A stretch of DNA of 64,000 nucleotides. It comes from Candidatus Spongiisociaceae bacterium (GTDB lineage Bacteria; Actinomycetota; Acidimicrobiia; Spongiisociales; Spongiisociaceae). The position numbers and the translations under genes are program-made. The notes under the pieces are model-generated. The model saw nothing but the letters and a program-made list of their open reading frames with translations. It searched no databases and had not been told where the DNA came from. The DNA is taken from NCBI GenBank assembly GCA_965202665.1, contig OZ241841.1, forward strand, positions 1,408,001 through 1,472,000, in the 5' to 3' direction. Numbering within the stretch: the stretch's first letter is position 1; every line of letters begins with the position of its first letter. Positions 2,724 through 58,114 of this stretch are shown here, one piece after another.

Positions 2724-3653
2724 ATGGACAACGACGAACGCCCCCTGGTGGTGGCGGCCGAGCCGATTTCAGCGGCGGGCCTGGATCTGCTGGGACGGAG
2801 CTGCCGGGTGGAGGAGGCGGCTGAAGTCCCCCGGGAGCGCCTGCTGGAACTGATGGGGGAGGCGCGGGGGCTGGTGGTGCGCAGCGGGGTGCGGGTGGAT
2901 CGGGAACTGATCGGGGCCGCCCCCCGGTTGGCGGTGATCGGCCGGGCGGGGGTGGGGCTGGACAACATAGACCTGGAGGCGGCCCGGGAGGCGGGCGCGG
3001 AGGTGGTGAGCACTCCCGCCGCCAACTCCATTTCCGCCGCCGAACATACCATGGCCCTGATGTTGGCCATGTGCCGTCATATTCCGCAGGCGGACGCCTC
3101 CATCCGGGCGGGGGCGTGGGAGCGGACCCGGTTCCGGGGGGTGGAGTTGTACGGGAAGACGCTGGGGGTGGTGGGGCTGGGCCGCATCGGGACGCTGGTG
3201 GCGGAACGGGCCTTGGCCTTCGGAATGTCTTTTCTGGTCTACGACCCCTATCTGACCGAAGAGCGGGTGGCCGGGCTGGGAGGGGAGCTGGTTGAATTGG
3301 AAACTTTGCTGTCCCGCTCCGATTTCATCACCATCCACATTCCGCTTACCGAGGAGACCCGCAACCTGATCGGGCGGGAAGCTTTGGCGGCCGCCAAGCC
3401 GGGGGTGCGCATCGTGAACGCCTCCCGGGGCGGCGTGCTGGACGAAGACGCCCTGGTGGAGGCGCTGCGCTCCGGCCGGGTGGGGGGAGCCGCTTTGGAT
3501 GTGTTCGCCTCCGAACCGATGACGGAAGGGCCCCTGCTGGACTGCCCGGGCATAGTGATGACCCCTCATTTGGCCGCCTCCACCGTCGAAGCCCAAGACC
3601 GGGTGGGAGAAGAGGTGGCCCAAAGAATGCTGGAGGTCCTAGCCCGAACGTAG
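2724..3653 (+). CDS. serA: D-3-phosphoglycerate dehydrogenase-like D-2-hydroxyacid dehydrogenase (short form, no ACT domain)
   Basis: 'GRAGVGLDNID', 'AAEHT', 'GLGRIG' Rossmann motif, 'NASRGG', 'LDVF..EP', 'TPHLAAST.EAQ'. Confidence 0.8.
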   Translation: MDNDERPLVVAAEPISAAGLDLLGRSCRVEEAAEVPRERLLELMGEARGLVVRSGVRVDRELIGAAPRLAVIGRAGVGLDNIDLEAAREAGAEVVSTPAANSISAAEHTMALMLAMCRHIPQADASIRAGAWERTRFRGVELYGKTLGVVGLGRIGTLVAERALAFGMSFLVYDPYLTEERVAGLGGELVELETLLSRSDFITIHIPLTEETRNLIGREALAAAKPGVRIVNASRGGVLDEDALVEALRSGRVGGAALDVFASEPMTEGPLLDCPGIVMTPHLAASTVEAQDRVGEEVAQRMLEVLART

Positions 3654-3674
3654 CGCACCCTGGGGGAGCGACCC

Positions 3675-4078
3675 AGCGCACCAGTTGTACCGTGGCGCAC
3701 GATTTGTTTCTTAGGACTTGAACCTTTTGTAGCGTGGTACACGATTTATCCTTTTGAAAGCGCACGAGTTGTGCTATGGCGCACGATTTGTCCTTTTGGG
3801 AGCACACGAATTGTACTGCGACGCACGATTTGTTTCTTTGGGTTCGTACTTTTTGTAGCGTGGTACACGATTTGTCTTTTTGGGAGCACACGAGTTGTAC
3901 CGTGACGCACGATTTGTTTCTTTGGGTTCGTACTTTTTGTAGCGTGGTACATGATTTGTCTTTTTGGGAGCGCACGAGTTGTGCTATGGCGCACGATTTG
4001 TCCTTTTGGGAGCACACGAATTGTACTGCGACGCACGATTTGTTTCTTTGGCCTTGTACTTTTTGTAGCGTAGCGAAC
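3675..4078. repeat. Tandem array of ~9.5 x 42-bp units with a 210-bp higher-order period
   Basis: CA(C/T)GATTT starts at 3698, 3740, 3782, 3824, 3866, 3908, 3950, 3992 and 4034 (exact 42-bp spacing); unit variants occur in the order D-A-B-C-A-D-A-B-C-A. Confidence 0.95.
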
Positions 4079-4140
4079 AAATGATGCGGTTCGTCTAATA
4101 TGGGTCTGCATAAAATCCCGCTCCCTATAAGATAGGAGAG

Positions 4141-5379
4141 ATGGAATACCAATCAAGAATTGCAGACGCCCAGTTGGCCGACATGCTCGCCGGTCTGCCC
4201 GCGGTCCTGATTGAGGGGGTGAGAGCAGTCGGCAAAACGGAAACCGCCCGCCGGGTCTGCGCCGACGAGATGTTGTTGGATGACCCCAACGTTTATGAGA
4301 TGGTGCGCGACGACCCGTTTAAGGCGGTGACCGGCTGGCGGGACCCGTTGCTGGTCGACGAGTGGCAACGTATCGGTCCGGTCTTTGACGGAGTGCGGCG
4401 GCAGGTGGACGACGACTATCGCCCCGGCCGGTTCGTGCTCACCGGTTCGGCCCGCCCGGTGGGGATCACCGCCCACTCCGGCGCCGGCCGGATAGCGGTT
4501 TTGCGAATGCGTCCCATGACATTGCCGGAGAGGGGGGCGGTCTCCCCGCAGGCGTCTTTGTCGCACCTGTTGGAGGGAGGCAAAGATTCGGTGGCGGGCC
4601 GAACCGAATTCGGGCTGGACGAATACGCTGAAGAAATCGGCCTTTCCGGTTTTCCCGGCATTCGGTTGCACCCCGGGGAAAGCCGGTTGCAACTCTCCGG
4701 ATACATAGAGAACATCATCCAACGCGATATAGAGGTATCGGGGTACAAATCGCGCAAGCCCGAATCTTTACGACGGTGGCTGGAGGCGTTCGCGGCCGTC
4801 GCCTCGGAGACCGCTTCTTTGGAGAAAATACGCGTCGCCGCCACCCGCGGAGATGGCTCGGCGCCCGGTCGGGGAGCGGCTTTGGACTACTACGAGGCTT
4901 TACGCCGTCTATGGGTGATCGACGACCTTCCGGGCTGGACGCCAACGGAGGACAAGTTGTCTTCGGTCAACCAGACGCCGAAACGCCATATGGCGGATCC
5001 CGCCTTGGCGATGGCGTTGCTAAATCGCGAACCTTCGTCTTTGATAACGGACCGGGAGTTTTTCGGCAAGCTCTTCGAGTCGCTGGTTGCGCTGACCGTT
5101 CGGGTGTTCGCGCAAGCGGCGGACGCCCGGGTGTTCCACCTTCGCACCAAAGGAGGCCGCCAAGAAGTGGATTTCATCGTGGAGACCGGCGAAGGGCGCG
5201 TGTTGGCGTTGGAGGCGAAACTGTCCCGGCAGATCGGGAAGGAGGATGTCGACCACCTGCATTGGCTGCGCAACCGGCTGGGTTCGCGCTGGATCGACGG
5301 GGCGGTGATCAACACCGGCCCATTCGCCCACCGCCAAGACGGAATAGCGGTAATCCCCCTAGCCCTTCTCGGCCCTTGA
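4141..5379 (+). CDS. AAA-family ATP-binding protein with C-terminal DUF4143/PD-(D/E)xK-like domain
   Basis: Walker A GVRAVGKT, Walker B LLVDEWQR, 'FVLTGSA', 'HSGAGRI', 'PKRHMADPAL', 'FESLV', 'EVDFIV...LALEAKL'; RBS GGAG upstream. Confidence 0.9.
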   Translation: MEYQSRIADAQLADMLAGLPAVLIEGVRAVGKTETARRVCADEMLLDDPNVYEMVRDDPFKAVTGWRDPLLVDEWQRIGPVFDGVRRQVDDDYRPGRFVLTGSARPVGITAHSGAGRIAVLRMRPMTLPERGAVSPQASLSHLLEGGKDSVAGRTEFGLDEYAEEIGLSGFPGIRLHPGESRLQLSGYIENIIQRDIEVSGYKSRKPESLRRWLEAFAAVASETASLEKIRVAATRGDGSAPGRGAALDYYEALRRLWVIDDLPGWTPTEDKLSSVNQTPKRHMADPALAMALLNREPSSLITDREFFGKLFESLVALTVRVFAQAADARVFHLRTKGGRQEVDFIVETGEGRVLALEAKLSRQIGKEDVDHLHWLRNRLGSRWIDGAVINTGPFAHRQDGIAVIPLALLGP

Positions 5380-5424
5380 AACCGCCTCGGCAAAGGCGCC
5401 ACTATGTTGGTCCTATGGTCGTGC

Positions 5425-6639
5425 CTATTTTGAAGCCTGGGCCAGTTGGGAGAGGGAGGCAACAACCCGCTCCCAATCGGGCTCTTCGGTCAGGTGGCAC
5501 CAGGAAATTCGGAGTGCGCCGGCGATGCGCTCCTCTCCCAGTTTCATTGCCTTCAGAACATGGCTCGGTTCATACTTCTCGGAGGTGCAAGCCGAACCGT
5601 TGGATATTTCGATTACGCCCTTGAGCGCCACCATTGCGGCTTCGGCGTCTACGCCCGGGATGGATAAATTCACCGCGTTTGGCGCTACCCGACCGAGGTC
5701 CCCGTTGATGACCGGCCGCAAGGGAGCCAAATGCTCGAGAAGTCGGTTACGGAAATCCAAATTCACGGCTTCCCGCTTTTTGTGCTCCCGTGATGCCAGT
5801 TCAGCCGCAAGGCCGAGGCCTACAACCAAGTGCACGGGAAGAGTGCCCGGTCTCAGTCCTCGTTCTTGACCGCCTCCGTACATCAGCGGGGTGAGCGGCA
5901 GAGCGGAGAACCCTCTCCGTCGAGCGATCAGGGCTCCCACCCCTTTGGGGCCGTAACATTTGTGCCCGCTGATGCTGATGAGATCGATGCGATGATTTTG
6001 AAGGGGCTCCACTATCTTGCCGAAGCCCTGCGCGGCATCCACATGGAGATACGTAGGATTGTCGGCAAGGGCCTCTGCGACGGCGGATATTGGTTGAATC
6101 ATTCCGGTCTCGTTGTTGACGTGCATGATGCTGACAAGGAGGGTGTCGTCACGGACGCGTTGCAGAACCTCGGTGGGGTCCACTGAGCCATCCCCGCGCG
6201 TGGGAGCTAAATCAACGGCAAAACCTTGACGGGAGAGGTGCTCCAGCGGTTCGATGACTGCTTTATGCTCGATCTCCGTTGAGACGATGTGCCGCCTTTG
6301 TTCCGCTTCTGGGCTCTTGGCGATGCCCAGAATGGCCAGATTGTCGCTCTCGGTCGCTCCGCTTGTGAAAATAACCTCATCGCTTTGGGCATCAACGAGG
6401 GAGGCAACCTGTTCACGGGCGCGTTGCACAGCTTGCTTGGCCCGATTCCCGCGCTCGTGCGTCCTGGAGCCTGCATTGCCGTACTCGATCTCGAGATACC
6501 TAACGACCTCTTCTCGGACGCGGGGCTCCACAGGCGCGGTAGCGTTGCAATCGAGGTAAACAGCCGCCGTTTCCAGAAGAAGGAGGTTCTTTCCGTATTC
6601 GGGCGATACTGGATCTATCATGCCACCAGTATAGACCAT
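5425..6639 (-). CDS. dndA: Cysteine desulfurase DndA
   Basis: 'YLDCNAT', 'FTSGATE', 'SGHKCYGPKG' PLP-Lys, 'SNGSAC' catalytic Cys; divergent from dndB. Start could be 6621. Confidence 0.92.
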   Translation of the reverse strand: MVYTGGMIDPVSPEYGKNLLLLETAAVYLDCNATAPVEPRVREEVVRYLEIEYGNAGSRTHERGNRAKQAVQRAREQVASLVDAQSDEVIFTSGATESDNLAILGIAKSPEAEQRRHIVSTEIEHKAVIEPLEHLSRQGFAVDLAPTRGDGSVDPTEVLQRVRDDTLLVSIMHVNNETGMIQPISAVAEALADNPTYLHVDAAQGFGKIVEPLQNHRIDLISISGHKCYGPKGVGALIARRRGFSALPLTPLMYGGGQERGLRPGTLPVHLVVGLGLAAELASREHKKREAVNLDFRNRLLEHLAPLRPVINGDLGRVAPNAVNLSIPGVDAEAAMVALKGVIEISNGSACTSEKYEPSHVLKAMKLGEERIAGALRISWCHLTEEPDWERVVASLSQLAQASK

Positions 6640-6667
6640 TCAAGCAGTTTGCCTTATTTGTGCTCAA

Positions 6668-6702
6668 GTATGTTTGACAATAAACATACAATTAAGTATA
6701 AT
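6668..6702 (+). promoter_or_regulatory. Consensus sigma70 promoter of dndBCDE with overlapping inverted-repeat operator
   Basis: TTGACA 6674-6679, 17-bp spacer, TATAAT 6697-6702; GTATGTTT-N6-AAACATAC at 6668-6689; AAGGAGG RBS before TTG 6742. Confidence 0.85.
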
Positions 6703-6741
6703 ATGGTAACATAAACGTTTCGGCGAAAATAAGGAGGGGTT

Positions 6742-7845
6742 TTGGAACGACCTTTCGAATATACCTTCCCCGCCATCCGGGGCATACAGGCTGGCCGGGA
6801 ATTTTACGTGTCGCAGTGCCCATTGCTCCTGGTTCCCAAAATCCTCCTCTACGACGAGGAGGAGATCATTCCGGAGATGAGAGCCCAGCGGACGATCAAT
6901 CGCTCCCGTGTACCCGAGATTGCGAAATACATGGTGCGCAACCGCAAGGAGTGGATTTTTTCGGCGTTGACCGCTTCCATTGACGGCGAGGCACGTTTCA
7001 CGGCATTTTCGGACGATCCGGGGAAACGCATTGGTATGCTCCATATTCCGATGTCCACGCGTTTCATCATCAACGATGGCCAACACCGGCGGGCGGCCAT
7101 AGAAATGGCAATGGCGGAGGAACCCTCGTTGGCCGACGAGAGCATCGGCTTGGTGCTTTTCCTGGATCGCGGCTTGCATCGTTCCCAACAGATGTTCGCC
7201 GATCTGAATCGCCATGCGGCCAAGCCCTCAAAATCGCTGGGGCTTCTCTACGACCATCGTGACCCGCTGGCTGAAATCATCAGGTTGGTGGTTTTCAAAT
7301 CAGATTTTCTGAAGGATGTTGTAGAAATCGAGAAAACTACGGTCGCCGCCCGGTCGCGAAAACTATTTACTTTGAGTGCTCTATATAACGGGACTCGCGC
7401 CTTTCTCGGAACCCTTCCCGAGAACCAAGAAATTCAAGTCGAGACACTGGCAGACCGCGGTCGCGGATTTTGGGAGGTGGTTGCTCAGCATCTGAAGGAA
7501 TGGCGTTTGGTTCGCGAACGCAAGATCGCCGCCTCCGAGGTACGCAGGGATTTCATTCATTCTCATGCCATAATCCTGCATGCCCTTGGCAGGGCGGGCC
7601 ATGATTTGTTGTGCGAATATCCAGGCAAATGGAAAAACAAGATCAGCAAACTGGCTGAGGTTGATTGGTCTCGGAATAATATACTGTGGGAAGGCCGTGC
7701 GATTACGGCCGGGAGAGTTACCAAATCACATCAGAATGTTATTCTTACTACTAACGCCATCAAGAAAATACTGAGTTTGCCTCTATCTGATGAAGAACAG
7801 TGCCAAGAAATTAATTTTAGTAGAAATGGTGTTACCAATGGCTAA
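6742..7845 (+). CDS. dndB: DNA sulfur modification protein DndB (DGQHR family)
   Basis: 'FPAIRGIQAGREFY', 'RAQR..N..R.PEI', 'INDGQHRRAAI', 'QQMFADLN'. Confidence 0.95.
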   Translation: MERPFEYTFPAIRGIQAGREFYVSQCPLLLVPKILLYDEEEIIPEMRAQRTINRSRVPEIAKYMVRNRKEWIFSALTASIDGEARFTAFSDDPGKRIGMLHIPMSTRFIINDGQHRRAAIEMAMAEEPSLADESIGLVLFLDRGLHRSQQMFADLNRHAAKPSKSLGLLYDHRDPLAEIIRLVVFKSDFLKDVVEIEKTTVAARSRKLFTLSALYNGTRAFLGTLPENQEIQVETLADRGRGFWEVVAQHLKEWRLVRERKIAASEVRRDFIHSHAIILHALGRAGHDLLCEYPGKWKNKISKLAEVDWSRNNILWEGRAITAGRVTKSHQNVILTTNAIKKILSLPLSDEEQCQEINFSRNGVTNG

Positions 7846-9358
7846 GTCATTTGCTCCTTCCGCTTTTACCGATCTCGGCTTCAACACTGTCGTGGAAAGC
7901 GTCATTACCGAAATACAGAATTTATACTGTGAAGATAGTATCCCTTGGGTGGTTGGTTATAGCGGGGGGAAAGATTCTACTGCCACCCTTCAACTGGTTT
8001 GGCTTGCTTTGTCGGAATTGCCTGTGGAAAAGAGGCACAAAATTGTTCATGTAATAAGCACTGATACTCTAGTAGAAAACCCTGTCGTAGCCGCTTGGGT
8101 AAATCACTCTCTTGAAAAAATTGCAAATAGTGCTTCTAGTCAAGAACTTCCTGTTAAATCACATAGACTTACTCCAAAAATAACCGATACCTTTTGGGTT
8201 AATCTAATAGGTAAAGGATATCCGGCTCCCAGGCCAAAATTTAGATGGTGCACGGAAAGAATGAAAATCAATCCTTCGAACCAGTTTATTCGTAACGTTG
8301 TTAGGTCAGATGGAGAGGCCATTGTTGTGTTGGGTACGCGCAAGGCTGAAAGCAAGGCTAGAGAATCTCGGATGACAAAGGTAGAAACTCAGAAAATCCG
8401 TGACTTACTTGTTCCTAATGTTAGTCTCGCAAATTCTTTGGTTTATACTCCAATCTCCACTTGGAACAATGATGATGTTTGGCTTTTTCTAATGCAGATT
8501 TCTAATCCTTGGGGGAACGATAATAAAGATCTGCTTACTATGTACAGTGGTGCCTCACCAGATGGGGAGTGCCCTCTGGTTATTGATACTAGTACTCCCA
8601 GTTGCGGAGACAGTAGGTTTGGCTGTTGGACCTGTACACTTGTTGATAAAGATAAATCGATGAGCGCAATGATCCAAAATGATAACGAAAAAGAATGGAT
8701 GCTTCCTTTGCTTGAAATTAGGAATGCCTTGGATTTGACCGATGATCGTCATCTTCGAGATTTTAGGAGGATGAATGGGAGCGTCCAATTATTCAAAAAC
8801 GCACCTATACCAGGTCCATATACACAGGATAGTAGAGAGAAATGGCTTCGTATGGTTTTAGACGCACAGACTTGGATAAGAGATAATGGTCCTAGAGAGG
8901 TGAATGATATTATTTTAATATCGTTAGACGAGTTGCACGAGATCCGCCGTATATGGATTTACGAAAAGCATGAAATAGAAGATAGATTACCTGACATCTA
9001 TCGGGAAACCACTGGTGAAGATTTCCCCGGCCAGCCACTGGATGATCATCTTCCGCTAGGCAAAACGGAGATGCGTATTCTGCTTTCCCTTTGCCCGGAT
9101 GATAGACTTCATTACGAATTGATTAGGGAACTCTTGGACATCGAACGCAACTATCGTGGTATGTCTCGGCGGTCAGGTTTATACGACAGTATTGAGGAAG
9201 CCTTTTCCCGACATTTCTATGAGAACGAAGAGGATGCTACTGAGCGAGCTCGTAATCTAGCGATCGCTAAACAAGTGGCAAATAAAGGGGAAGTAGATTA
9301 TGTTAAAATGGATCTCTCTAGTTATGCGGAGATACTTCCAACAGAGCCGAGCGTATGA
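7838..9358 (+). CDS. dndC: DNA phosphorothioation sulfurtransferase DndC (PAPS reductase family)
   Basis: 'PWVVGYSGGKDS', 'DTLVENP', 'GKGYPAP...FRWCT.RMKI.P', 'GECPLV', 'SCG.SRFGCW.CT'; ATG 7838 overlaps dndB end. Confidence 0.96.
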   Translation: MAKSFAPSAFTDLGFNTVVESVITEIQNLYCEDSIPWVVGYSGGKDSTATLQLVWLALSELPVEKRHKIVHVISTDTLVENPVVAAWVNHSLEKIANSASSQELPVKSHRLTPKITDTFWVNLIGKGYPAPRPKFRWCTERMKINPSNQFIRNVVRSDGEAIVVLGTRKAESKARESRMTKVETQKIRDLLVPNVSLANSLVYTPISTWNNDDVWLFLMQISNPWGNDNKDLLTMYSGASPDGECPLVIDTSTPSCGDSRFGCWTCTLVDKDKSMSAMIQNDNEKEWMLPLLEIRNALDLTDDRHLRDFRRMNGSVQLFKNAPIPGPYTQDSREKWLRMVLDAQTWIRDNGPREVNDIILISLDELHEIRRIWIYEKHEIEDRLPDIYRETTGEDFPGQPLDDHLPLGKTEMRILLSLCPDDRLHYELIRELLDIERNYRGMSRRSGLYDSIEEAFSRHFYENEEDATERARNLAIAKQVANKGEVDYVKMDLSSYAEILPTEPSV

Positions 9359-11340
9359 TAATCAAAGAATTGGTTCTCTATAACTTTGGCGTTTATGCTG
9401 GTCGTCAAGTTCTTAATTTAGAGCCTCCTTGTCCAGATCATCCTGTTATTCTTATCGGCGGTTTAAACGGAGGTGGGAAGACCACTATTTTGGATGCTGT
9501 CCAGTTGGCACTATATGGTAAAAGGGCGCGTTGTTCCGCTCGTGAAAAATATAGTTATAAAGAGTTTCTACGAAAGTCCATAAATAGAAATGCTACGAAG
9601 GCTGGAGTGGAGCTAGAGTTCGAAACTCATTTCGTGGGTGAAACCACTACCTTACGGATTTGCCGAAGCTGGGGTTATAAGGGGAAAGGCGTAGACGAAA
9701 ATTTATCGATATGGCGTGATGGAGAACCGGATCACCTGTTGACGCATTCATGGAGTAATCGCGTTGAAGAATATCTTCCATTGAATATAGCGCAATTATT
9801 TTTCTTTGATGGCGAACGTATAGAAGGTTTGGCTGACAGTGATCGCTCTAGGGTTTTAATGGAGACTGGTATCAACTCTTTACTGGGGGTTGATATTATC
9901 CGGCAATTAGATTCCGATTTGACGGTTTTGCTTCGCCGCAAGCTAAAAGATAAACAAGAAGGTAAGTATGAAAAGGAAATTGAATCAATAGAGTCATCGA
10001 TTCAAAAACTTGAGGCATTACGGCAAGAGGCCTTGCTTGATAAGGCTCACAATCAGGCCCTATATGAACAGGCAATGGCAAAATTGGAATCAACAAATGA
10101 AAAGTACAGTCAGGAAGGAGGAAATTTATATGAGCAACGTATCACTATTGAGCAAAAAGGAGACGGACTCAAACAAGAAATAGTTGATAAGGAGGAACAC
10201 TTACGAGATCTTGCAATGGGATCACTCCCACTTGCGTTGGTAAACGATCTTTTTCATAATACTTTAGACCGCTCTGTATTGGAGCAAAATACTTTTGTCC
10301 AGCAAAAGGTTTATGAAGAGATGAAAATTCGCAACCGGGATCTTGTGGAATGGATGAAAAAACAACAATTCGCGGAAGGTATACAGGAGTCGATTGCTCT
10401 GTTCTTGGATAATACTACATCACCTCCTAAGGATCAAATTAGCCCGAGGCTTGATTTAGGAGTCAATATAACTGACAATATGAGGGTACTAAGGGATAGA
10501 TATTTACCTGATGATATAGGTAAAACAAAAGCATTGCTGGAAGAGGTAGAGAAACTTGAAATGGACTATACAGAGACAGAACGCATGCTGTCAGCAATTC
10601 CAGAAGAGGCACGAATTAAACCCTTGCAGAGAGAGAGAAATAGACTTATATCGAAAGTGGAAGATTTGACTGTCAACCTCAACACATCTGCGGAGGTATT
10701 TGAAAGAGTTGACAGAGATCTTACTTCACAAAAGGAATCACTCATCCGTTTATTAGATGCACAGGTTAGAGAATTGTTGGAAAGAGACGAATCAGAGAGA
10801 ATAGTTATTCATGCAAATCGCGTCCGTAAAACACTAGAGACCTTTCGCTTGGCTGTTATTAGAGAGCACATCGGTCGCATCGAGGAGGAAATAACGAGTT
10901 GCTTTAGAAGATTACTACACAAAGAGTTGTTAATTGAGAAGGTATGTTTAGATGTATCCAGCTTTGGTATCACCATAAAGGGCTTTGATGATAAGAGGAT
11001 CCCAGTTGAACAATTGTCAGCTGGTGAACGCCAACTTCTGGCAGTTGCTTTTCTCTGGGGCTTAGCTATCGTATCCGGGAGGACTCTTCCAACAATTATC
11101 GATACTCCTTTGGGGAGGCTTGATAGCCTTCATCGCGATCGATTAATTACTCACTATTTTCCCAACGCTAGTCATCAAGTTTTGTTGCTTTCGACGGATG
11201 AGGAAATCGATCGGGATCTTTACAAGATATTGAGACCGTATGTAGGGCACGAGTATAGGTTGGAGTTTGACGACAGCATCCAATCTACCACAGTAGTGCC
11301 CGGTTACTTTTGGACAAAGGAGTTGTCATATGCCAATTGA
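9355..11340 (+). CDS. dndD: DndD SMC/ABC-type ATPase
   Basis: Walker A GLNGGGKTT, 'LFFFDGE.IE', coiled coil, 'LSAGERQLLA', 'IIDTPLGRLDS.HR', 'YFP.ASHQV.LLSTDEEI'. Confidence 0.96.
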   Translation: MIIKELVLYNFGVYAGRQVLNLEPPCPDHPVILIGGLNGGGKTTILDAVQLALYGKRARCSAREKYSYKEFLRKSINRNATKAGVELEFETHFVGETTTLRICRSWGYKGKGVDENLSIWRDGEPDHLLTHSWSNRVEEYLPLNIAQLFFFDGERIEGLADSDRSRVLMETGINSLLGVDIIRQLDSDLTVLLRRKLKDKQEGKYEKEIESIESSIQKLEALRQEALLDKAHNQALYEQAMAKLESTNEKYSQEGGNLYEQRITIEQKGDGLKQEIVDKEEHLRDLAMGSLPLALVNDLFHNTLDRSVLEQNTFVQQKVYEEMKIRNRDLVEWMKKQQFAEGIQESIALFLDNTTSPPKDQISPRLDLGVNITDNMRVLRDRYLPDDIGKTKALLEEVEKLEMDYTETERMLSAIPEEARIKPLQRERNRLISKVEDLTVNLNTSAEVFERVDRDLTSQKESLIRLLDAQVRELLERDESERIVIHANRVRKTLETFRLAVIREHIGRIEEEITSCFRRLLHKELLIEKVCLDVSSFGITIKGFDDKRIPVEQLSAGERQLLAVAFLWGLAIVSGRTLPTIIDTPLGRLDSLHRDRLITHYFPNASHQVLLLSTDEEIDRDLYKILRPYVGHEYRLEFDDSIQSTTVVPGYFWTKELSYAN

Positions 11341-11710
11341 GAGGATTCGACTGAGTGAACGGGAGCGTGAACAGCTGATTACGCTCAAGCGTCGGACCAA
11401 GCTGAAGAACTGGAATGTGCTATGTCGTTGGGCATTATGTACCTCGTTGGCTGAGCCCACCCCTCCTCCCAAGGCCGAGATCGTTTCGGATAGTTCGGTC
11501 GAGATGACTTGGCGAGTGTTTGCTGGCCAGTACGAAGATTTGTACCTGGCATTGCTGAAGCAACGTTGCTTGCAGGATGGGCTTGAAATAGACGACGATG
11601 TGTTGATGACTCAGTTTCGGCTCCATTTGAATCGCGGTATCGGCTATCTCTACGGTGATCGTTCGATGAAAAATATAGGTGATCTAGTCCGAAGGGCTGT
11701 TGATGCATGA
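11330..11710 (+). CDS. dndE: DndE nicked-DNA-binding protein
   Basis: 'IRLS...EQLI.LKR.T...NWNVLCRWALC.SLAEP..P', 'EMTW.VF.G', 'FRLHL.RGI.YL'. Confidence 0.93.
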   Translation: MPIERIRLSEREREQLITLKRRTKLKNWNVLCRWALCTSLAEPTPPPKAEIVSDSSVEMTWRVFAGQYEDLYLALLKQRCLQDGLEIDDDVLMTQFRLHLNRGIGYLYGDRSMKNIGDLVRRAVDA

Positions 11711-11782
11711 TGGCCGTTTGTCGCTGTAGAGGCACTCGCTGTGATTTGACTCGCCGGTCTGTTGTGGTATGCTCTAAGCGTA

Positions 11783-13870
11783 ATGTTACCAAATTTGCAG
11801 ATTGAGGCCTCTTACCGGAGTGACCGGAATCAGGTTCTCCATAACTTTCACATCCCGTGTCTGGAGCAAGCAACTTCCTACGACAGAGCTGTAGGATACT
11901 TCACCAGTGGGTCCTTGAGCCTTGTGGCAACTGGCTTGAGTAGGCTTATTCAGCGAGATGGACGGATGCGACTCGTGGCCTCACCGCGCCTCAACGAGGA
12001 GGACGGGAAGGCTATCCGTGAAGGCTACGAGCAACGCGAGGTCATCGAGCGAAACTTAGTTCGTGAGCTTACACGTGATGACATACCTGATCCAGTAAAG
12101 GAGCGTCTAGGTTTTCTAGCATGGATGGTCGCCGAAGGCTTTCTAGATATCCGGATTGCTCTCGTGCGCAATGATCAGGGAGTAGGGATTTATCATGAGA
12201 AGTTTGGAATATACACCGATTCGGAAGGTCATCAGGTAGTTTTTTCTGGTTCAGCCAACGAAACTGCTGCTGGACTTGTCAGCAATTTTGAATCGTTAGA
12301 GGTATTTTGTTCTTGGGTAGACATAGACACAGAACGTGTAAAGAGCCGGGTCTATGACTTCGACTTGCTATGGGAAGGTAATACAGATGGGTTACAGATA
12401 TATGATTTTCCCGAAGCTGCTCGTCAAGCGATCCTTCAGTATAAACCAGAAACTAAACCAAGTTCGGAGCCCAAAGAAAATCATGACTTGATAGGCATGG
12501 AGACCCCATATTCGCCCAACTGGCTATGTCTCAGGGACTATCAAAGGACAGCCATAGAAAAATGGTTTCAGGCTAATGGGCGAGGTATTTGGGAAATGGC
12601 CACAGGTACAGGCAAAACGGTTACTGCTCTAGATGCCATGACCAAAGTATTTAAAGAACATCACTCACGAGGTCAGGCTTTGTTTGTCGCTATAGTATGT
12701 CCGTTTATACATCTCGCCGAACAATGGGATAAAGAAGCTCGGAATTTTGGGGCAACACCCATAATATGTGCAGAAGGCCTAGATAAATGGTACACCGAAG
12801 CCAATGATGCTATAGCTTCGCTAAATCTCGGCCAGTCGGAATTTGTTCTTACGATTACTACCAATTCTACTTTTACAAAAAAACCATATCAATCATTTAT
12901 AAGGCAAGTTAAACCAAACATTCTTCTGATAGCGGACGAGGTTCATAATTTCGGTTCTCCTCAGATTAGAGGTGTCTTACCAGAAAATGCTACATATAGA
13001 TTAGGACTTTCTGCTACTCCGGAACGGCATTTTGACATTCTTGGCAGTCAGGCGATTACAGATTATTTTGGTGATTCTGTTTTTGCTTATAGCATACAGG
13101 ATGCAATTAAGTCAGGATATTTAACTTCATATAGTTATGAACCTATTATTGTGTATTTAGATGACGAGGAGATGGAAGAGTATATCGAACTAACTAAGCA
13201 AATAGGTAAACTATGGAATTGGAACAAGGGCGGAAGGTCGATAGATCAAGTTGAAGACGGACCTCTTAAAGTATACTTGATAAAGCGCGCAAGTTTACTT
13301 AGATCAGCGCGAGGAAAGATAGATTTACTAAGAAAAACAATGGTTGGATTTGCGCACTCTTATCATAATCTGCTATACTGCGATTCTGACGGCGATGTAG
13401 GCGAGAGCCAACTTGCTGAGGTATGCAAGATATTAGGAACTGAATTGAAAATGAAAGTCAATACCTATACACACCAGACACCTCCGAGAGAGCGGATGAG
13501 ACTAACTCGGGAACTTGAATCTGGTGAGATTCAGGCACTAATTGCTATACGATGCCTTGATGAAGGGATTGATATCCCAAGTGCTCGGAGAGGGTTTATC
13601 TTGGCAAGTTCAACTAATCCTCGGCAATTTATTCAGCGCAGAGGTAGGCTTTTACGTCTTGCTGATGGTAAGGAGCAAGCAGAAATATACGATTTTATAG
13701 TTGTTCCATCAGAAGATTTATTTGATCAGAAAACATTTAAAATGGAGCGTGAGTTAGTTAGGAAGGAACTCAATCGCGTAGTTGAATTTGCTAAGTGTGC
13801 AAAAAATGGCGCACAAGCCTTGGTAAAATTATTACCTATTCGCAAACGTTATCAATTGCTTGATTTGTAG
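11783..13870 (+). CDS. pbeA: Dnd-associated PLD-nuclease/SF2 helicase fusion (PbeA-like)
   Basis: N-terminal 'YDRAVGYF.S.SL', PLD-like 'HEKFG...GSANET'; helicase 'ATGTGKT', 'DEVH', 'GLSATP', 'CLDEGIDIP', 'QRRGRLLR'; directly after dndE. Confidence 0.85.
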   Translation: MLPNLQIEASYRSDRNQVLHNFHIPCLEQATSYDRAVGYFTSGSLSLVATGLSRLIQRDGRMRLVASPRLNEEDGKAIREGYEQREVIERNLVRELTRDDIPDPVKERLGFLAWMVAEGFLDIRIALVRNDQGVGIYHEKFGIYTDSEGHQVVFSGSANETAAGLVSNFESLEVFCSWVDIDTERVKSRVYDFDLLWEGNTDGLQIYDFPEAARQAILQYKPETKPSSEPKENHDLIGMETPYSPNWLCLRDYQRTAIEKWFQANGRGIWEMATGTGKTVTALDAMTKVFKEHHSRGQALFVAIVCPFIHLAEQWDKEARNFGATPIICAEGLDKWYTEANDAIASLNLGQSEFVLTITTNSTFTKKPYQSFIRQVKPNILLIADEVHNFGSPQIRGVLPENATYRLGLSATPERHFDILGSQAITDYFGDSVFAYSIQDAIKSGYLTSYSYEPIIVYLDDEEMEEYIELTKQIGKLWNWNKGGRSIDQVEDGPLKVYLIKRASLLRSARGKIDLLRKTMVGFAHSYHNLLYCDSDGDVGESQLAEVCKILGTELKMKVNTYTHQTPPRERMRLTRELESGEIQALIAIRCLDEGIDIPSARRGFILASSTNPRQFIQRRGRLLRLADGKEQAEIYDFIVVPSEDLFDQKTFKMERELVRKELNRVVEFAKCAKNGAQALVKLLPIRKRYQLLDL

Positions 13871-13884
13871 GAAGGAGGAAATTT

Positions 13885-14067
13885 ATGATGAATGAAGAGG
13901 CTAAGTCAACCTTTCAAGAGGTTAGGAAATTATTTCAAAACCTCTCGCTCGAGACTCAAGATCTTGTGGATGGTGTACTCAAGATAGAGCAGACCTCACT
14001 CCATCTGAAGAAGCCGCGCGGACTTAAGTTGGAAGTGCTCGATTTGGTAAGGAGTATTATACCATGA
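13885..14067 (+). CDS. Small Dnd-associated protein (PbeB-like)
   Basis: 60 aa, strong RBS GAAGGAGG, stop overlaps next start (ATGA); occupies the pbeB position. Confidence 0.7.
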   Translation: MMNEEAKSTFQEVRKLFQNLSLETQDLVDGVLKIEQTSLHLKKPRGLKLEVLDLVRSIIP

Positions 14068-16127
14068 AGCTCGACCGTCTCTCTCTGACTAATTTTCGGC
14101 CATTTTATGGTGACCAAGAGTTGATCTTTGATCATTCCAATACGAGGAACGTTTATATAGTTTTTGGAGCTAACGGAGTTGGGAAAACTACGCTCCTGAA
14201 TGCCATGACTTGGGTATTATATAAGGAGCTGAGTTATGACTTTGAACAGCCGAACCGTCTTGTCAATAACCGAGCTTGGAGAGAATGTAATGAGGGTTCA
14301 ACTGTAGATGCAGTAGTAGAACTTGAGTTCACACATGGTTCTACACGGTATATTATCAAAAGAATACATCAGGTACGTAAGGAGGGTGATGAACAGATTA
14401 CGATGATTGACGGGGAACCCAGTTTGCATATTATAAATGAGAATGGTGGATTTGTTAAATCCGAAAACCCTTCCAATATTGTCGATCAAATATTACCTAA
14501 ACGGTTGCATCCTTTTTTCTTCTTTAATGGAGAACGAATTGAGCGCCTTGCTCAAGATGATGCCGATCAAGAAATCGAGGCGGCCGTTAAGATGGTACTA
14601 GGACTGGAGGTATTTGATCGTGGTCGGAAACATCTTGAAGGAGCGATACAGGAACTCCAGAAAGAACAAGCTAAAGTTGGTTCTATAGAAACAAAAGAGA
14701 TTGTTGAAAAATTGGGAGAACTCGATTCCAGAAAAGAGCGGTTAGAAGAAGAACTTAGTAACTTACATAGTGAAAGGGTTGCGCTGGATAAGAATATATC
14801 GGAAATAGGAGACAGAGTACGGTTAATAGGTGAAGCTCGCGAACTGCAAAAACAACGAGATCTATTTGAGCAAGAGCTAGAGGGTTCTCGTAAAAGGGAT
14901 AAAGAATTACGCGAGATGCTTAGAAATATCCTTGTGAAGAAAAGTTATGTGGTGTTTCTATCTGATCTCTCTGATCAAGTAGTTGCCCTAATTGAAGGTC
15001 TTCGTGTAAAAGGCGAGATTCCAGCACCTATAAAGAGACAGTTCGTTGAGGATCTTTTGGAAGAGGGATTGTGTATTTGTGAGACCCGTCTTGTGAAAGG
15101 AGAGATTCCTTATCTGAATGTTGAACAATGGCTGGCCAGGGGCGGCGATGGTGATGTTGAGGATGCCATTGTAAAATTAAACGCAGAAATAGATCAACAT
15201 TCTATTAGCCGTCCTGATATTTTGACAGAGATAGCTGATATTAATAAACAGTTGTTTGATAATAGCAGATTTCGTAAAAGGCTAGAAGAAAAGTTAGATG
15301 ATGTAGGTGAAAAGCTCAAGAAATTTCCTTTGGAAGAGGTATCAAAATTAGAGGAGAAACGTAATGACTATTTGAAACAAACTCATGAGAATGCTCGACT
15401 ACAAGGTTCTAAATCGGTTGAATTAAAATCTACCAAAGAAAATATCAAGAATAAGCAAATCGAATTAGAGAGAGTAAAGGAAGAAAATGCCAAGGCGTTG
15501 ATTGCTCAACAAAGAGTGATTACTGCTAAGGAGGCTCGTGATTTTTTTGCTACAGTGCATACTTTGAGAAGCCATGATGTACGCGTAGAGTTAGATGATC
15601 TTATCAGAAAAGTGTATTCCAAGATTGATTTTAAAGGTTATCAACCTCTTTTAAATGACAATTTTTTGTTAGAATTACGAAATCCGAGTGAAGAAAATGC
15701 CCTGGTAGCTAAATCCACGGGCGAGAATCAAATTTTGAGCCTTTCTTTTGTCGGAGCTCTTGCTAAGTTGGCGCGTAAGCCTAAAGAGGATATTTTTGAT
15801 AGAAAGTTTGGTGGGTTAATTAAATTTGAAGGAGGTGATTACCCTGTTGTTATTGATGCTGCCTTTGGGCAATTAGAAATTGAATATCAACGTGCGGTTG
15901 CAAGTGCCCTTCCAAGTTTAGCTAATCAAGTTATAGTATTTGTTTCGAAGGCACAAGGGATGGGAGCGGTTTTAGAAGAATTAGCACCGTTTAGTGCAGG
16001 TATATCTATTATTCACTACAGGACTACCGAGGAAAACGAGGAGTGTATTGAACTTCGAGGGGAAGAGTTTCCATATATATCAAGGAGTATCGATGGAAGT
16101 GGATGGGCTTCCATCGACAGAACATAG
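14064..16127 (+). CDS. pbeC: SMC/Rad50-like ATPase with CxC motif (PbeC-like)
   Basis: Walker A GANGVGKTT, 'FFFFNGERIE', coiled coil with 'CIC', signature 'STGENQ', Walker B/D-loop 'VVIDAAFGQL'. Confidence 0.82.
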   Translation: MKLDRLSLTNFRPFYGDQELIFDHSNTRNVYIVFGANGVGKTTLLNAMTWVLYKELSYDFEQPNRLVNNRAWRECNEGSTVDAVVELEFTHGSTRYIIKRIHQVRKEGDEQITMIDGEPSLHIINENGGFVKSENPSNIVDQILPKRLHPFFFFNGERIERLAQDDADQEIEAAVKMVLGLEVFDRGRKHLEGAIQELQKEQAKVGSIETKEIVEKLGELDSRKERLEEELSNLHSERVALDKNISEIGDRVRLIGEARELQKQRDLFEQELEGSRKRDKELREMLRNILVKKSYVVFLSDLSDQVVALIEGLRVKGEIPAPIKRQFVEDLLEEGLCICETRLVKGEIPYLNVEQWLARGGDGDVEDAIVKLNAEIDQHSISRPDILTEIADINKQLFDNSRFRKRLEEKLDDVGEKLKKFPLEEVSKLEEKRNDYLKQTHENARLQGSKSVELKSTKENIKNKQIELERVKEENAKALIAQQRVITAKEARDFFATVHTLRSHDVRVELDDLIRKVYSKIDFKGYQPLLNDNFLLELRNPSEENALVAKSTGENQILSLSFVGALAKLARKPKEDIFDRKFGGLIKFEGGDYPVVIDAAFGQLEIEYQRAVASALPSLANQVIVFVSKAQGMGAVLEELAPFSAGISIIHYRTTEENEECIELRGEEFPYISRSIDGSGWASIDRT

Positions 16128-16133
16128 GAGTAG

Positions 16134-16610
16134 ATGATGGTAAGCGTCCCTGGGTATCGGCGGGTAAGACGCCCTAAGGACAAGTCCAATCTATTGGACC
16201 GTCTCACTAAATCCGAGAATCGGGCAAACAGCCCATTCGATAGCTACCGTGACGTTATTATATTCTGCGCGGCCCTTGGTTGGTGGCGGAAGAGGAGGGT
16301 CTCGTTTGATAGTTCTGATGAACCTATACGTTGGGAGACTATGACCAGTTTGCCTGGAGCCGAAATGTTGGTAAATATGTTGGCAGTTAGCCAAACGGAC
16401 GATCCTACTATTTTACTGGATGAACGTTTTGATGATAGAATAGTAATATTTGAGGAGTACGCAAATGGTGGCCTTGAAGTACTACGCGAATCGCTTGATC
16501 GATCACCTAAACCGGCGGTAGATGTTTTAAGAGATTTTGTAATGCAGGCCGATATTGATGTCGATATAAATATTGCTCCAATAGATCTCACCAACATAGA
16601 GCCCGATTGA
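16134..16610 (+). CDS. DNA phosphorothioation-associated protein (PbeD / dnd-associated protein 4-like)
   Basis: 'RRVRRPKDK...L', 'F.SYRDV..FCAALG', 'IFEEYANGGL..L' motif; last gene of the AT-rich island. Confidence 0.78.
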   Translation: MMVSVPGYRRVRRPKDKSNLLDRLTKSENRANSPFDSYRDVIIFCAALGWWRKRRVSFDSSDEPIRWETMTSLPGAEMLVNMLAVSQTDDPTILLDERFDDRIVIFEEYANGGLEVLRESLDRSPKPAVDVLRDFVMQADIDVDINIAPIDLTNIEPD

Positions 16611-35565: not shown

Positions 35566-36444
35566 TTATACCTCATCGAAAAATTCCTTTTGCACGGTTA
35601 CATTTTCTTCACCTTCTTCTCCCAGTGCTTGGACCCCTAAATTATATTCTTTTAGCAAAAGGCAAAGATAATCTCCATCTATTAGGTCGATAGGCTGGGC
35701 TCCGTCTCGGGCGGCTTCGTCTTTTGCTTGCTCAGTGAAAGTCCCCGTAGTAATAAATAGCCCGCTACCGCCTCTCCCGCCCATGACGCCTTGGAATTTC
35801 CTAATATCGTCAACTCCAACTTTATCTTTGTAACGTTTGCATTGAATATAGACGCGAGTGCTTATGAGATTGAGTTTATAAACGCCAACCCCATCGATTC
35901 CCCCATCACCCGACCGTTTGGTTTGTTGCAGATCGCTAAATCCTGATGCTCTTAGCAACAGAAGAGAGAGCCTTTCAAAGGCGTGCGCTTCCATACTTTT
36001 GAGAATATCCAGCAGGTTGTCTTTCCAGGCGGATTCCATTTCCGGGTAACCCTGCTCACCGGCTTTACGTTGCGTTTTCTTAGATCTGCCTTCCTGGGAA
36101 TCTTTTATCAAGATTTCCATCGCTTCCCCTTCTTCAATTAATAGACAGCTCCGCCCTTTGGGGGTTATAGTCCAGATTCCTCGTTTAGGATTTGCCAGGA
36201 ATCCGCCAAATTTCAAATAAGAGATGGCGAACTCTATCCGGTTTGCTACCTTGGGTTCTCCGGATAATCTAGAATCAGGCCCGAATGACGCAGACAGATG
36301 TTGCGGCGGTATATGGGTAAGAACCTCTCGTATGAGCTCTTGACGGGTGGCTGACCCCCCCAGGTTTTCAACCGCTTGCAGAGTGGGGTGCATTAACTGC
36401 TTGTAGGTGGGAAGGTCGTCCGCGGCGGGGGCGTCGGCGGTCAT
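35566..36444 (-). CDS. mrr: Mrr-family type IV restriction endonuclease
   Basis: Mrr_N winged helix ('RI.FA.SYL...G.L.NP.RG.W.IT.KG'); Mrr_cat 'FE.L...LL...GF', 'DGGIDG', 'IQCKRY', 'FITTGTFT', 'IDLIDG'; AT-rich. Confidence 0.93.
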   Translation of the reverse strand: MTADAPAADDLPTYKQLMHPTLQAVENLGGSATRQELIREVLTHIPPQHLSASFGPDSRLSGEPKVANRIEFAISYLKFGGFLANPKRGIWTITPKGRSCLLIEEGEAMEILIKDSQEGRSKKTQRKAGEQGYPEMESAWKDNLLDILKSMEAHAFERLSLLLLRASGFSDLQQTKRSGDGGIDGVGVYKLNLISTRVYIQCKRYKDKVGVDDIRKFQGVMGGRGGSGLFITTGTFTEQAKDEAARDGAQPIDLIDGDYLCLLLKEYNLGVQALGEEGEENVTVQKEFFDEV

Positions 36445-52077: not shown

Positions 52078-52437
52078 ATGGAGAAGGTCAGGATTCCCCG
52101 TGATTGCGAGTTGGCTTACTCCACCTTGCGGGCAATAGAAAAAAGAGGCGGGTCAGTTCGAACCGGGGAGTTGAACGACGCCGTGTCGGAGATAACCGGC
52201 CTTACCGAAGAACAGTTGGCATCCGTTAACATCGAGTCGGTCAAGATGCAGATGGGTTGGGCGAGAAGCGGGCTCAAAACCTCCGGTCATCTGGACAACA
52301 GCCAGTGGGGCGTCTGGTCCCTCACGCAACTGGGCCGGGACCTGCTGGAACTTGAACCCGCCGAAGCCGAACGGCTGGCGAAAAAGGCGTGTGATTACGG
52401 TTGGGAAGTCCGGTTTGCGGCAAAGGCCCGCCGCTAG
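52078..52437 (+). CDS. Stand-alone Mrr N-terminal winged-helix protein
   Basis: 'L.A....GGS....EL...V....GLTEEQL', 'GWARS.LK..G.LDNS..GVWSLT..G'; no catalytic domain. Confidence 0.75.
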   Translation: MEKVRIPRDCELAYSTLRAIEKRGGSVRTGELNDAVSEITGLTEEQLASVNIESVKMQMGWARSGLKTSGHLDNSQWGVWSLTQLGRDLLELEPAEAERLAKKACDYGWEVRFAAKARR

Positions 52438-52551: not shown

Positions 52552-52635
52552 TTTTGCCCGTTCGTGTTGCGGCTGTTGGGTTGCCCGCTATGGCCGTGCG
52601 TAAGGATTTCCGGGCGTTTGGAAGGAGGCGTGGCA

Positions 52636-56322: not shown

Positions 56323-56347
56323 GCTGTTTCACGCAACCCAACACGCC

Positions 56348-56386
56348 AGGAAGCCCCCCCGCCCAAGCAGGGGGGCTTCCTGTTTT
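56348..56386 (+). terminator. Rho-independent terminator
   Basis: aggaagcccccc / ggggggcttcct stem followed by gtttt. Confidence 0.85.
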
Positions 56387-56604
56387 ACCCCCGATTCGGC
56401 GGGCGGTCGGGTTAAATTCGCTTTGTGGTATAATGCGGTGACCGGGTTGTTAGGGGACCCTGTGGTGAGAGTTTGGAGGTCGTGTTGGCGGCGACGGTAA
56501 TGCTATCTGATGATGTTCGGGATGGTTCTGTAGGCGTGTTTGATCCGTCGGGGTGGAACGGGGCGTGGCGGCGGTTGGGGTGGAATTTCTGTTGGCGGGA
56601 GGGC

Positions 56605-57261
56605 ATGGGGGAGACTTTTCCGCATTCTTCCCAGTTTTTGGACGGCCTGCCGGGGCGGGTGCGTGGTTACCTGCTGGCGCGGGGGGCGCCGGAGGAGGAG
56701 GCGGCTGAGGTGTCGGAGTGGGTGAGGCCGCAGTATGAAAAGCATCGTCAATGGAGGGAGCGTCCGCGTTTGAGTTACGAGGAGCGCACGAGGCGGTTGG
56801 GTCGTCCTCCTATGTTTCGCAGTACGTTTCAGGTGGTGCCGGAGTTGCCTGCGTTGATGCGCCGTCCGGATGGCCGGGGAGGTTCCCGGGATTTGGTGCA
56901 GTTCTCTAAAGACTGGGCTACTCAACCGGCGGATCGGATGACGATGATGGCCGATCCTCCGCCCGTCGGGACCGAAGTGGGGATTGCTTGCAGTATCGCG
57001 ACGGTGGTGCATGCGTTGTGCGATCTGGATGAGATGGTCCCGCCGGACTGGGTGTTTGAGTATCGGTCGCCGGAGACGATGTTGGTGTGGGGCATGCAGG
57101 CTTTGGACAGGGCAAGGTTGCGGAGGATGGTCATCGCCAAGTCGCCGCCTGCTTGCGAGTTTCATCGTGTCTTTTTCGAGCGGTCGTTTATAGAGGGCCC
57201 GTTGTGGATAAACACTCCCAGTATTAGTAGACCTGCCGAAAAGTCGGCTTCTGACCAGTGA
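56605..57261 (+). CDS. Putative antitoxin-like partner of the downstream nucleotidyltransferase
   Basis: 'PP......IA..V..LC.....P.WV...SP.....VF' C-terminal pattern recalled from partners of such NTases; stop overlaps next start; extended -10 TGGTATAAT 56426-56434. Confidence 0.55.
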   Translation: MGETFPHSSQFLDGLPGRVRGYLLARGAPEEEAAEVSEWVRPQYEKHRQWRERPRLSYEERTRRLGRPPMFRSTFQVVPELPALMRRPDGRGGSRDLVQFSKDWATQPADRMTMMADPPPVGTEVGIACSIATVVHALCDLDEMVPPDWVFEYRSPETMLVWGMQALDRARLRRMVIAKSPPACEFHRVFFERSFIEGPLWINTPSISRPAEKSASDQ

Positions 57262-57923: not shown

Positions 57924-58114
57924 GTTTGTCCGTCCGCCGGCGCCTCGGTCCAACCACCTTTACAAGAGGCTCCAGCCGGGTCGCAGGTTCCCGCCAGAGT
58001 TGCCAACCGCACCTAAACACAGCGGGCGGCAACATCCCCCAAGGCCTCAAAATGGCTAGGGAGGGGGCGGCCCTGCCCGCTGTGCCGAGCGACCGGCCAA
58101 GAATCACCAAAGCC

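What the first reader, a model, noticed from the sequence alone, without database searches (positions are those of the whole stretch)
3675..5379. 42-bp higher-order tandem array directly upstream of an AAA/DUF4143 ATPase at the edge of the Dnd island
Seen: about 9.5 units at exact 42-bp spacing, in four variant types ordered D-A-B-C-A twice (210-bp super-period). A core CACGAnTTGT motif starts each unit and recurs 23 bp into B, C and D units, giving alternating 23/19-bp spacing (about two helical turns). The array is T-rich, unlike its flanks, and ends ~60 bp before the ATPase start. It has no unique spacers, so it is not CRISPR. Several frames stay open across it (14-aa repeats). Inference: it could be an iteron-like protein-binding array, a repeat RNA, or a repeat peptide working with the ATPase-nuclease-like protein, i.e. 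an undescribed repeat+ATPase module.
Basis: partly seen in the sequence, partly recalled or inferred. Interest (0 to 1): 0.72.

Follow-up and report, generated by a model that had tools for sequence, protein, structure and literature searches.

The report
Amplified operator array before ATPase-nuclease
The 400-base repeat is real and is an unusually long, copied-up version of the short row of DNA boxes found in front of most genes of a very common but uncharacterised ATPase-nuclease family; the boxes are likely docking sites for the gene's own protein, and here they alternate at 19 and 23 bases instead of the usual 23.

Summary
The array is real: 3675-4071, about 9.5 units of 42 bp, four types, 210-bp super-period, supported by public runs. 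The gene after it is PDC-S01 (AAA_14 + DUF4143). Of 121 family loci, 97 have a direct repeat just upstream (77 at 23 bp) against 13 of 120 control stretches. The last box usually forms the gene's -10 element. Residue 244 of the predicted winged helix tracks the base before the box core (Lys purine, Arg T; held-out 35 of 36 and 4 of 4 sites; only 4 independent pairs, p 0.125). The window's Arg protein has T boxes, as predicted. Special here: the longest array of the 121, and alternating 19/23 spacing shared only with the same-genus positional ortholog; a separate nine-member clade uses 19 alone. Four of eight runs lack one 19-bp module, so 42 bp is not fixed. Dnd is an incidental neighbour. Guide RNA and repeat peptide are unsupported. 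Best reading: a self-operator amplified by repeat slippage; binding untested. This scan noted the 23-bp family pattern before on other DNA; my paper searches did not find it in print.

The parts
3675..4071 (+). Higher-order tandem array, about 9.5 x 42 bp (19-bp + 23-bp modules), types A-D-B-C-D repeated with a 210-bp period
3684..4071 (+). Box 1, family-type core (T)TGTAsyGT once per unit, core G at 3687, 3729, 3771, 3813, 3855, 3897, 3939, 3981, 4023, 4065; 6 of 10 score 9.2-11.3 bits on the family core matrix, 4 score 1.0-3.9
   Evidence: matrix built from 44 other loci
3698..4050 (+). Box 2, CACGATTTGT(t/c)..., 19 bp after each box 1; invariant across the four unit types, weak on the family core matrix (about 0 bits), 15 of 17 bases kept in the same-genus ortholog
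4072..4140 (+). Decayed proximal part, alignable to the ortholog's box row; candidate -10 hexamers TAAAAT (4111-4116) and TAAGAT (4128-4133, leaderless position). Promoter not located
   Evidence: sequence, alignment; sigma-70 scan found no full promoter and no terminator in 3600-4200
4141..5379 (+). PDC-S01 / COG1373-type protein, 412 aa: AAA_14 ATPase (Walker A 26-33, Walker B 70-74), helical + winged-helix region, PD-(D/E)xK nuclease-fold domain (E342, D344, E358, K360 present)
4738..4995 (+). Predicted winged-helix region (residues 200-285); helix 244-256 (4870-4908) begins with Arg244, the residue that tracks the box sequence
2724..3653 (+). Upstream D-2-hydroxyacid dehydrogenase gene; anchors the site (same gene precedes the ortholog in G001). 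Context, not part of the module
5425..16610 (.). dndA-E plus PbeA/PbeC-like genes; neighbour only, replaced by other sequence right after the ATPase in several strains

Best explanation
The array is a copied-up form of the direct-repeat box row that sits over the promoter of most PDC-S01 (AAA_14-DUF4143) genes, and the boxes are likely bound by the encoded ATPase-nuclease through its predicted winged helix, which would damp its own transcription. Shown: family-wide upstream repeats with a 23-bp period; the last box usually coincides with a TANNNT hexamer at -12..-7; residue 244 tracks the base 5' of the GTA core; the window's ten box-1 copies fit that rule; the same-genus positional ortholog has four boxes at 23/19/23, i.e. 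about two 42-bp units. Inferred: in this lineage already diverged 42-bp units were multiplied by slippage or unequal exchange, last as a 210-bp block; the extra copies lie 76-454 bp upstream of the start, so they would act as a cooperative loading site or sink for the protein more than as a block on the promoter; whether the extra copies are selected is open.
For: Repeats upstream in 97 of 121 loci, lag 23 in 77 and 46 in 9, against 13 of 120 control stretches with no preferred lag. Strong cores in 66 subfamily loci peak at -13, -36, -59 from the start. Protein-blind box calls in 44 loci: Lys244 purine at 50 of 54 sites, Arg244 T at 21 of 30; column 244 is the best predictor of all 412 (0.886, next 0.773); held-out 21 loci: Lys 35 of 36 purine, Arg 4 of 4 T. 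Window protein (left out) has Arg244 and T at all ten box-1 sites. Paralogs in the same genome have their own, different arrays. Model pLDDT 91.7, closest folds the archaeal AAA-winged-helix ATPases 2qen (Z 15.0) and 2fna (Z 14.0) over residues 1-295. Box 2 kept at 15 of 17 bases in the ortholog while fourfold sites are 56% identical; best in the 119 other loci 13 of 17.
Against: No binding or expression data. The residue-base link rests on 9 changes on the tree but only 4 independent pairs on well-supported branches, sign test p 0.125; only 2 held-out Arg loci, one a poor box call. Box 2 and 4 of 10 box-1 copies match the family core poorly, and the promoter-proximal boxes are decayed. The isolated winged-helix model is weak (pLDDT 56.8) and its winged-helix hits are not significant (best E 0.89); the whole fold also resembles NLR/apoptosome ATPases, whose winged helix is not a DNA reader (my knowledge). 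The genome also has amplified arrays before two Fic genes and an AAA_16 gene, so the length may reflect a lineage-wide tolerance of slippage, not a function. Box 2 conservation is modest (binomial p 0.005 before allowing for choosing the best match).
Confidence: 0.7

Rival explanations
1. Tandem promoters: each box 1 is a copy of the -10 element and the array raises expression of the ATPase (a dosage switch set by copy number), with or without binding by the protein.
For: In the family the last box is the -10 position; 6 of 10 box-1 copies keep a TANNNT hexamer (TAGCGT, TACCGT); no terminator between array and gene; strains differ in module order.
Against: No -35 hexamer at 16-18 bp in the scan (0 promoters); box 2 has no TANNNT; a sigma site would not be expected to change with a residue of the downstream protein.
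Confidence: 0.12
2. A neutral minisatellite: the DNA is not bound by the protein and has simply expanded in an AT-rich gap.
For: Similar expansions before unrelated genes in this genome; module order varies between strains; the close relatives L039-L041 manage with 2-4 boxes.
Against: Fixed 23-bp (or 19-bp) period and fixed position across classes of the phylum; the array contains the family core and obeys the residue rule. Neutral growth can explain the length but not the boxes.
Confidence: 0.1
3. A repeat RNA processed into guides for the ATPase-nuclease (TIGR- or CRISPR-like).
For: Two conserved blocks alternate with two variable blocks per unit, superficially like TIGR dual repeats (PMC12045711 passages); read-through from the upstream gene is possible.
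Against: Variable parts recur instead of being unique; no match elsewhere in the genome and one 31-bp phage hit at E 0.1 among 50,697 records; no Nop domain; one CCA on the sense strand; no fold beyond shuffles; no Rfam family; most relatives have only 2-4 boxes lying on the promoter itself.
Confidence: 0.05
4. A 14-residue repeat peptide (ORF 3776-4084 or a minus-strand frame) that works with the ATPase.
For: 42 is a multiple of 3; one frame is stop-free and two have one stop.
Against: Variable columns fall 7/6/5 over the codon positions and changed codons are mostly non-synonymous in all six frames (31-35 against 4-12); an open frame is common by chance; no Pfam match; four runs lack a 19-bp module, which shifts every frame; relatives have periods of 23 or 19.
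Confidence: 0.02

Closest known systems
PADLOC candidate PDC-S01 (COG1373; Pfam AAA_14 PF13173 + DUF4143 PF13635)
   Same: The protein is a member (E 1.1e-72; Pfam). Papers describe it as a very common single-gene ATPase-PD-(D/E)xK candidate (PMC12988326, PMC13356809, passages read) of unknown function (PMC3424549 table passage).
   Different: None of the passages read mentions upstream repeats. One PDC-S01 gene was tested in E. coli B against T4, T5 and T7 and was not among the four systems that protected (bioRxiv 10.1101/2024.09.26.614923, passages), so a defence role is unproven.
Autoregulated defence/TA genes with repeated operators, e.g. AbiEi of type IV TA AbiE
   Same: A defence-type protein binds repeated sites in its own promoter cooperatively and represses it (PMC7319586, abstract).
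   Different: AbiEi sites are inverted repeats and the binder is a separate antitoxin; here the repeats are direct, up to 19 in a row, and the inferred binder is a single ATPase-nuclease.
Plasmid iterons with Rep initiators; archaeal Orc1/Cdc6 with ORB boxes (both recalled, not read)
   Same: Phased direct repeats of about two helical turns next to the gene for an AAA/winged-helix or winged-helix protein; Orc1/Cdc6 chains are among the Foldseek hits (2qby, 1w5s).
   Different: No sign of an origin: chromosomal solo gene, up to 33 family matches per genome, nuclease domain attached, boxes centred on the gene's own -10/-35 positions.
TIGR-Tas dual-repeat arrays (PMC12045711, passages)
   Same: Two alternating conserved blocks per unit, 5-15 units, next to a nuclease gene.
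   Different: No Nop domain, no unique spacers, no box C/D pattern on the sense strand, 42 instead of 36 nt.

Membership tests
PDC-S01 / COG1373 | AAA_14 ATPase fused to DUF4143, single gene | tested here: met
PDC-S01 / COG1373 | Intact Walker A/B and PD-(D/E)xK residues | tested here: met
   GVRAVGKT at 26, LLVDE at 70, E342/D344/E358/K360
PDC-S01 / COG1373 | Anti-phage activity | not testable with these tools
   one published test of another member showed no listed protection
Autoregulatory direct-repeat operator | Repeats at a fixed place over or next to the gene's own promoter | tested here: met
   family peaks at -13, -36, -59; in the window the strong boxes lie at -76 to -454 and the proximal ones are decayed
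Autoregulatory direct-repeat operator | Box sequence changes with the DNA-reading helix of the protein | tested here: inconclusive
   strong raw and held-out association, but 4 independent pairs, p 0.125
Autoregulatory direct-repeat operator | Protein carries a winged-helix DNA-binding domain | tested here: inconclusive
   whole model aligns to AAA-winged-helix ATPases over 1-295; isolated domain gives only non-significant winged-helix hits
Autoregulatory direct-repeat operator | Direct binding and repression | not testable with these tools
   needs gel shift and reporter
CRISPR array | Unique spacers between constant repeats | tested here: not met
   units recur whole; the genome's CRISPR-like array lies elsewhere, about 1613945-1618247
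TIGR-Tas | Adjacent Nop-domain protein | tested here: not met
   Pfam of the flanking proteins
TIGR-Tas | Variable 8-12 nt spacers flanked by box C (CCA) and box D (UG) | tested here: not met
   variable parts are not unique; one CCA on the sense strand
TIGR-Tas | Processing into unit-length RNAs | not testable with these tools
   no RNA run was listed
Replication iterons | Origin function with a Rep initiator | not tested
   comparison from memory only
Dnd/Pbe phosphorothioate island | Stable linkage to dnd genes | tested here: not met
   0 of 141 other loci have dndA in the fetched flank; strains diverge at 5398

The most novel reading that the evidence does not exclude
PDC-S01 proteins polymerise on their own box rows, and the row is a DNA 'antitoxin': it parks an ATP-gated nuclease as a filament whose geometry is set by the spacing (23 bp twists one way, 19 bp the other, 19+23 = 42 bp keeps every second box on one face of the helix). 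Loss or degradation of the row during infection would release the nuclease. The 19-box array here would be a high-capacity dock and the natural test case for a spacing code.
Probability: 0.12. Interest if true: 0.8.

Novelty: new variant of a known kind. Interest (0 to 1): 0.45.

Why it matters
PDC-S01 is among the most common candidate defence genes in prokaryotes and has no known substrate or regulator. A predicted binding site, a one-residue specificity rule (Lys/Arg244) and three natural spacings (23, 19, 19+23) give direct handles for binding, structure and regulation assays, and may explain why moving the bare gene into E. coli showed nothing. The window's own array is mainly an extreme, convenient example; its length alone may be neutral.

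Tried and rejected
Rfam, 3000-7000: one chance hit at E 0.46. RNA folding of both strands: no better than shuffles. Phage collection: one 31-bp hit, E 0.1. Motif-first scan of JGI metagenomes with the two-box 19-bp pattern: 6 hits, none with a DUF4143 gene within 2.5 kb, read as chance or unrelated minisatellites; close relatives may be absent from that collection. The search for related loci in genome contigs gave one partial hit only. No RNA holder listed: no evidence on expression either way. A protein signature of 19-bp spacing: Q4 and S274 are shared by the window clade and the 19-bp clade, but 2 shared columns is within the range of other non-sister clade pairs (0-3, one pair 5) and S274 is in 41 of 118 homologs, so rejected. 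No solved relative by sequence. The careful tree did not finish; quick trees were used. DNA around the 60-97% protein relatives P0001-P0022 could not be fetched, so spacing in most of the window's clade is unknown. Paper searches: 'DUF4143' 4 papers, 'PDC-S01' 7, 'COG1373/PDC-S01/AAA_14' any-term 809, mostly unrelated, 40 listed, a six-term search for winged-helix ATPase autoregulation 0, a six-term search for higher-order promoter repeats 1 unrelated; none described upstream repeats in the listings or passages seen. The original PADLOC candidate paper and supplements were not read and could bear on this.

Full report
Observation. The array occupies 3675-4071 on the + strand, between a D-2-hydroxyacid dehydrogenase gene (2724-3653) and a 412-aa gene at 4141-5379. 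TRF reports period 42, 9.0 copies. In register there are four unit types in the order A-D-B-C-D-A-D-B-C-(D); the 210-bp lag gives 174 of 200 identities, the best of nine lags. Across the four types the invariant columns are AC...TTGT (box 1) and CACGATTTGT...TTTGGG (box 2). Box 1 to box 2 is 19 bp, box 2 to the next box 1 is 23 bp. The unit occurs nowhere else in the 2.77-Mb genome.

Not an artefact. Run X1 lays unitigs on the array without differences, at 367-369 depth over 3904-3951 and 3969-4051 against 174-184 elsewhere, which is what two copies of those stretches predict; X1 may be the source sample. Seven other runs hold array pieces, most with other letters. In X3, X6, X11 and X17 (three studies) the ATPase-bearing contig joins 3886 or 3760 to 4032, skips of 145 and 271, i.e. 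3x42+19 and 6x42+19: one 19-bp module is missing and the last boxes run 23-23. X9 and X16 have contigs continuous through this part like the window. These joints were found at likeness 85 and 80 with 34-40 letters on the short side, so they carry the tool's caution; total copy number cannot be read from unitigs. The 42-bp period is therefore not fixed in the population; the 19- and 23-bp modules are the units that move.

The protein. Pfam AAA_14 + DUF4143; PADLOC PDC-S01, E 1.1e-72. Walker motifs and PD-(D/E)xK residues are present. The model (pLDDT 91.7) is closest to the archaeal ATPases 2qen and 2fna (Z 15.0 and 14.0, rmsd 4.3-4.4, residues 1-295), then NLR/CED-4 ATPases; residues 200-285 have the three-helix-plus-wing order, and the isolated domain's best hits are winged-helix proteins, none significant.

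Family pattern. Two of the six other DUF4143 paralogs in this genome have clear 23-bp arrays of different sequence directly upstream. From 133 loci fetched I kept 121 distinct, full-length ones with 250 bp or more upstream, the window included. 97 of 121 have a direct repeat in the last 160 bp that beats all 20 dinucleotide shuffles; best lags 23 (77), 46 (9), 19 (5), 42 (2), 38, 14, 27, 60 (1 each). A stretch 250 bp further upstream passes in 13 of 120 with no preferred lag (one locus, L130, has its score inflated by masked bases). Relatives are not independent, but the pattern extends over class and phylum samples. The window's array is the longest of the 121 (377 bp by this measure; the longest other box rows about 130-160 bp).

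The box and the helix. In the 44 other loci at 43% identity or more, a protein-blind search gives the core GTAGyGT. In 66 loci strong cores peak at -13 (14), -36 (13) and -59 (6) from the start codon, so the last box contains a TANNNT hexamer at the -10 position of a leaderless promoter and the next lies over -35 (inference from the known actinobacterial consensus, recalled). Residue 244, first of helix 244-256, tracks the base before the core: Lys purine at 50 of 54 sites, Arg T at 21 of 30. It is the best of 412 columns. In 21 held-out loci Lys gave purine at 35 of 36 sites and Arg T at 4 of 4. On the 66-row tree the residue changes 9 times, but only 4 pairs are independent on well-supported branches; none goes against the rule, p 0.125. 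The window's protein has Arg244 and all ten box-1 copies have T there; six are strong core matches, four weak, and box 2 is weak. The idea of testing a helix residue came from an earlier scan note.

What is particular here. G001, same genus, has the same dehydrogenase followed, after an inserted gene, by the 70% ortholog L039. Its upstream has four boxes at 23/19/23, the last being TATACT; lag 42 is its best repeat, the region aligns with the window's proximal 130 bp better than any of 1000 shuffles or 119 other loci, and box 2 keeps 15 of 17 bases against 56% identity at fourfold sites. So the 19/23 alternation predates the expansion. The sister pair L040/L041 uses 23, and a separate clade of nine loci (SH-aLRT 100) uses 19 alone: spacing changes twice on the tree. 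At 10.5 bp per turn, 42 bp keeps box 1 on one face while 23 and 19 bp precess by +69 and -69 degrees. I found no protein signature for the 19-bp spacing.

Dnd is incidental. Contigs of X3, X6 and X9 leave the window's sequence at 5398, 19 bp after the stop, into one other shared sequence; X17's match also ends at 5398, and X11 holds the Dnd-side sequence at half the ATPase depth. None of 141 other loci has dndA in its fetched flank of about 0.3-1.5 kb.

Amplification is not special to this gene. The genome has 450-bp, 175-bp and 193-bp arrays directly before two Fic genes and an AAA_16 gene. This supports slippage or unequal exchange acting on existing upstream repeats and leaves open whether the extra copies do anything.

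Rivals. RNA guide: no structure, no Rfam family, no unique spacers, no Nop protein, no targets found. Peptide: no codon signal, and the 19-bp polymorphism breaks frame. Tandem promoters cannot be excluded because box 1 carries the -10-like hexamer. No RNA data were available.

Known and new. The protein is an ordinary member of PDC-S01; papers seen as passages treat it as abundant and unvalidated (PMC12988326, PMC13356809, PMC3424549), and one test found no listed protection (10.1101/2024.09.26.614923). Cooperative self-repression at repeated sites is known for AbiEi (PMC7319586, abstract). My searches did not find upstream repeats of this family in print. This scan has noted the 23-bp family pattern on other DNA several times; a look-up for alternating or higher-order spacing returned nothing. 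Verdict: real feature, a new variant (19/23 spacing, longest seen) of a likely self-operator; binding untested; interest 0.45.

Noticed in passing
G000:C1:1314799-1315252 (L148): A 450-bp higher-order array (31- and 41-bp modules, period 72) directly upstream of a Fic_N + Fic gene; same kind of expansion as the finding.
   Followed up: partly
G000:C1:849653-849827 (L149) and 2020758-2020950 (L150): 62-bp x2.8 array before a second Fic gene; 77-bp x2.5 perfect array before an AAA_16 ATPase gene.
   Followed up: partly
L002 (G000:C1:1909355-1909486) and L003 (963407-963527): 23-bp arrays of 5-6 copies, each with its own sequence, before two other DUF4143 paralogs; L002 alternates with a 46-bp period.
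   Followed up: yes
L045, L048, L051, L052, L066, L133, L170, L171, L172: A well-supported clade of PDC-S01 genes whose boxes are spaced 19 bp instead of 23.
   Followed up: yes
tallies: DUF4143 genes are expanded in the window's family (16 of 18 genomes, up to 33 matches) and found in only 1 of 12 sampled genomes of other families in the order.
   Followed up: no
window 5398 onward: The site right after the ATPase stop is a swap point: Dnd/Pbe island here, another sequence in X3, X6 and X9; X11 holds both forms.
   Followed up: partly
window 11762-16610: PbeA- and PbeC-like genes and an unassigned 158-aa gene follow dndBCDE in a low-GC island.
   Followed up: no
window 35569-36444 (-) and 52078-52434 (+): A full Mrr restriction gene and a stand-alone Mrr_N domain ORF.
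   Followed up: no
window 52564-62676: Two large S-layer-homology surface proteins (1252 and 1402 aa) flanking a low-GC nucleotidyltransferase-like gene (57258-57920) and its upstream partner ORF.
   Followed up: no
G000:C1:1613945-1618247: A CRISPR-like array (about 36-bp repeat, period 72-73).
   Followed up: no
L039 upstream (G001): A small gene on the opposite strand is inserted between the dehydrogenase and the ATPase's box row.
   Followed up: no
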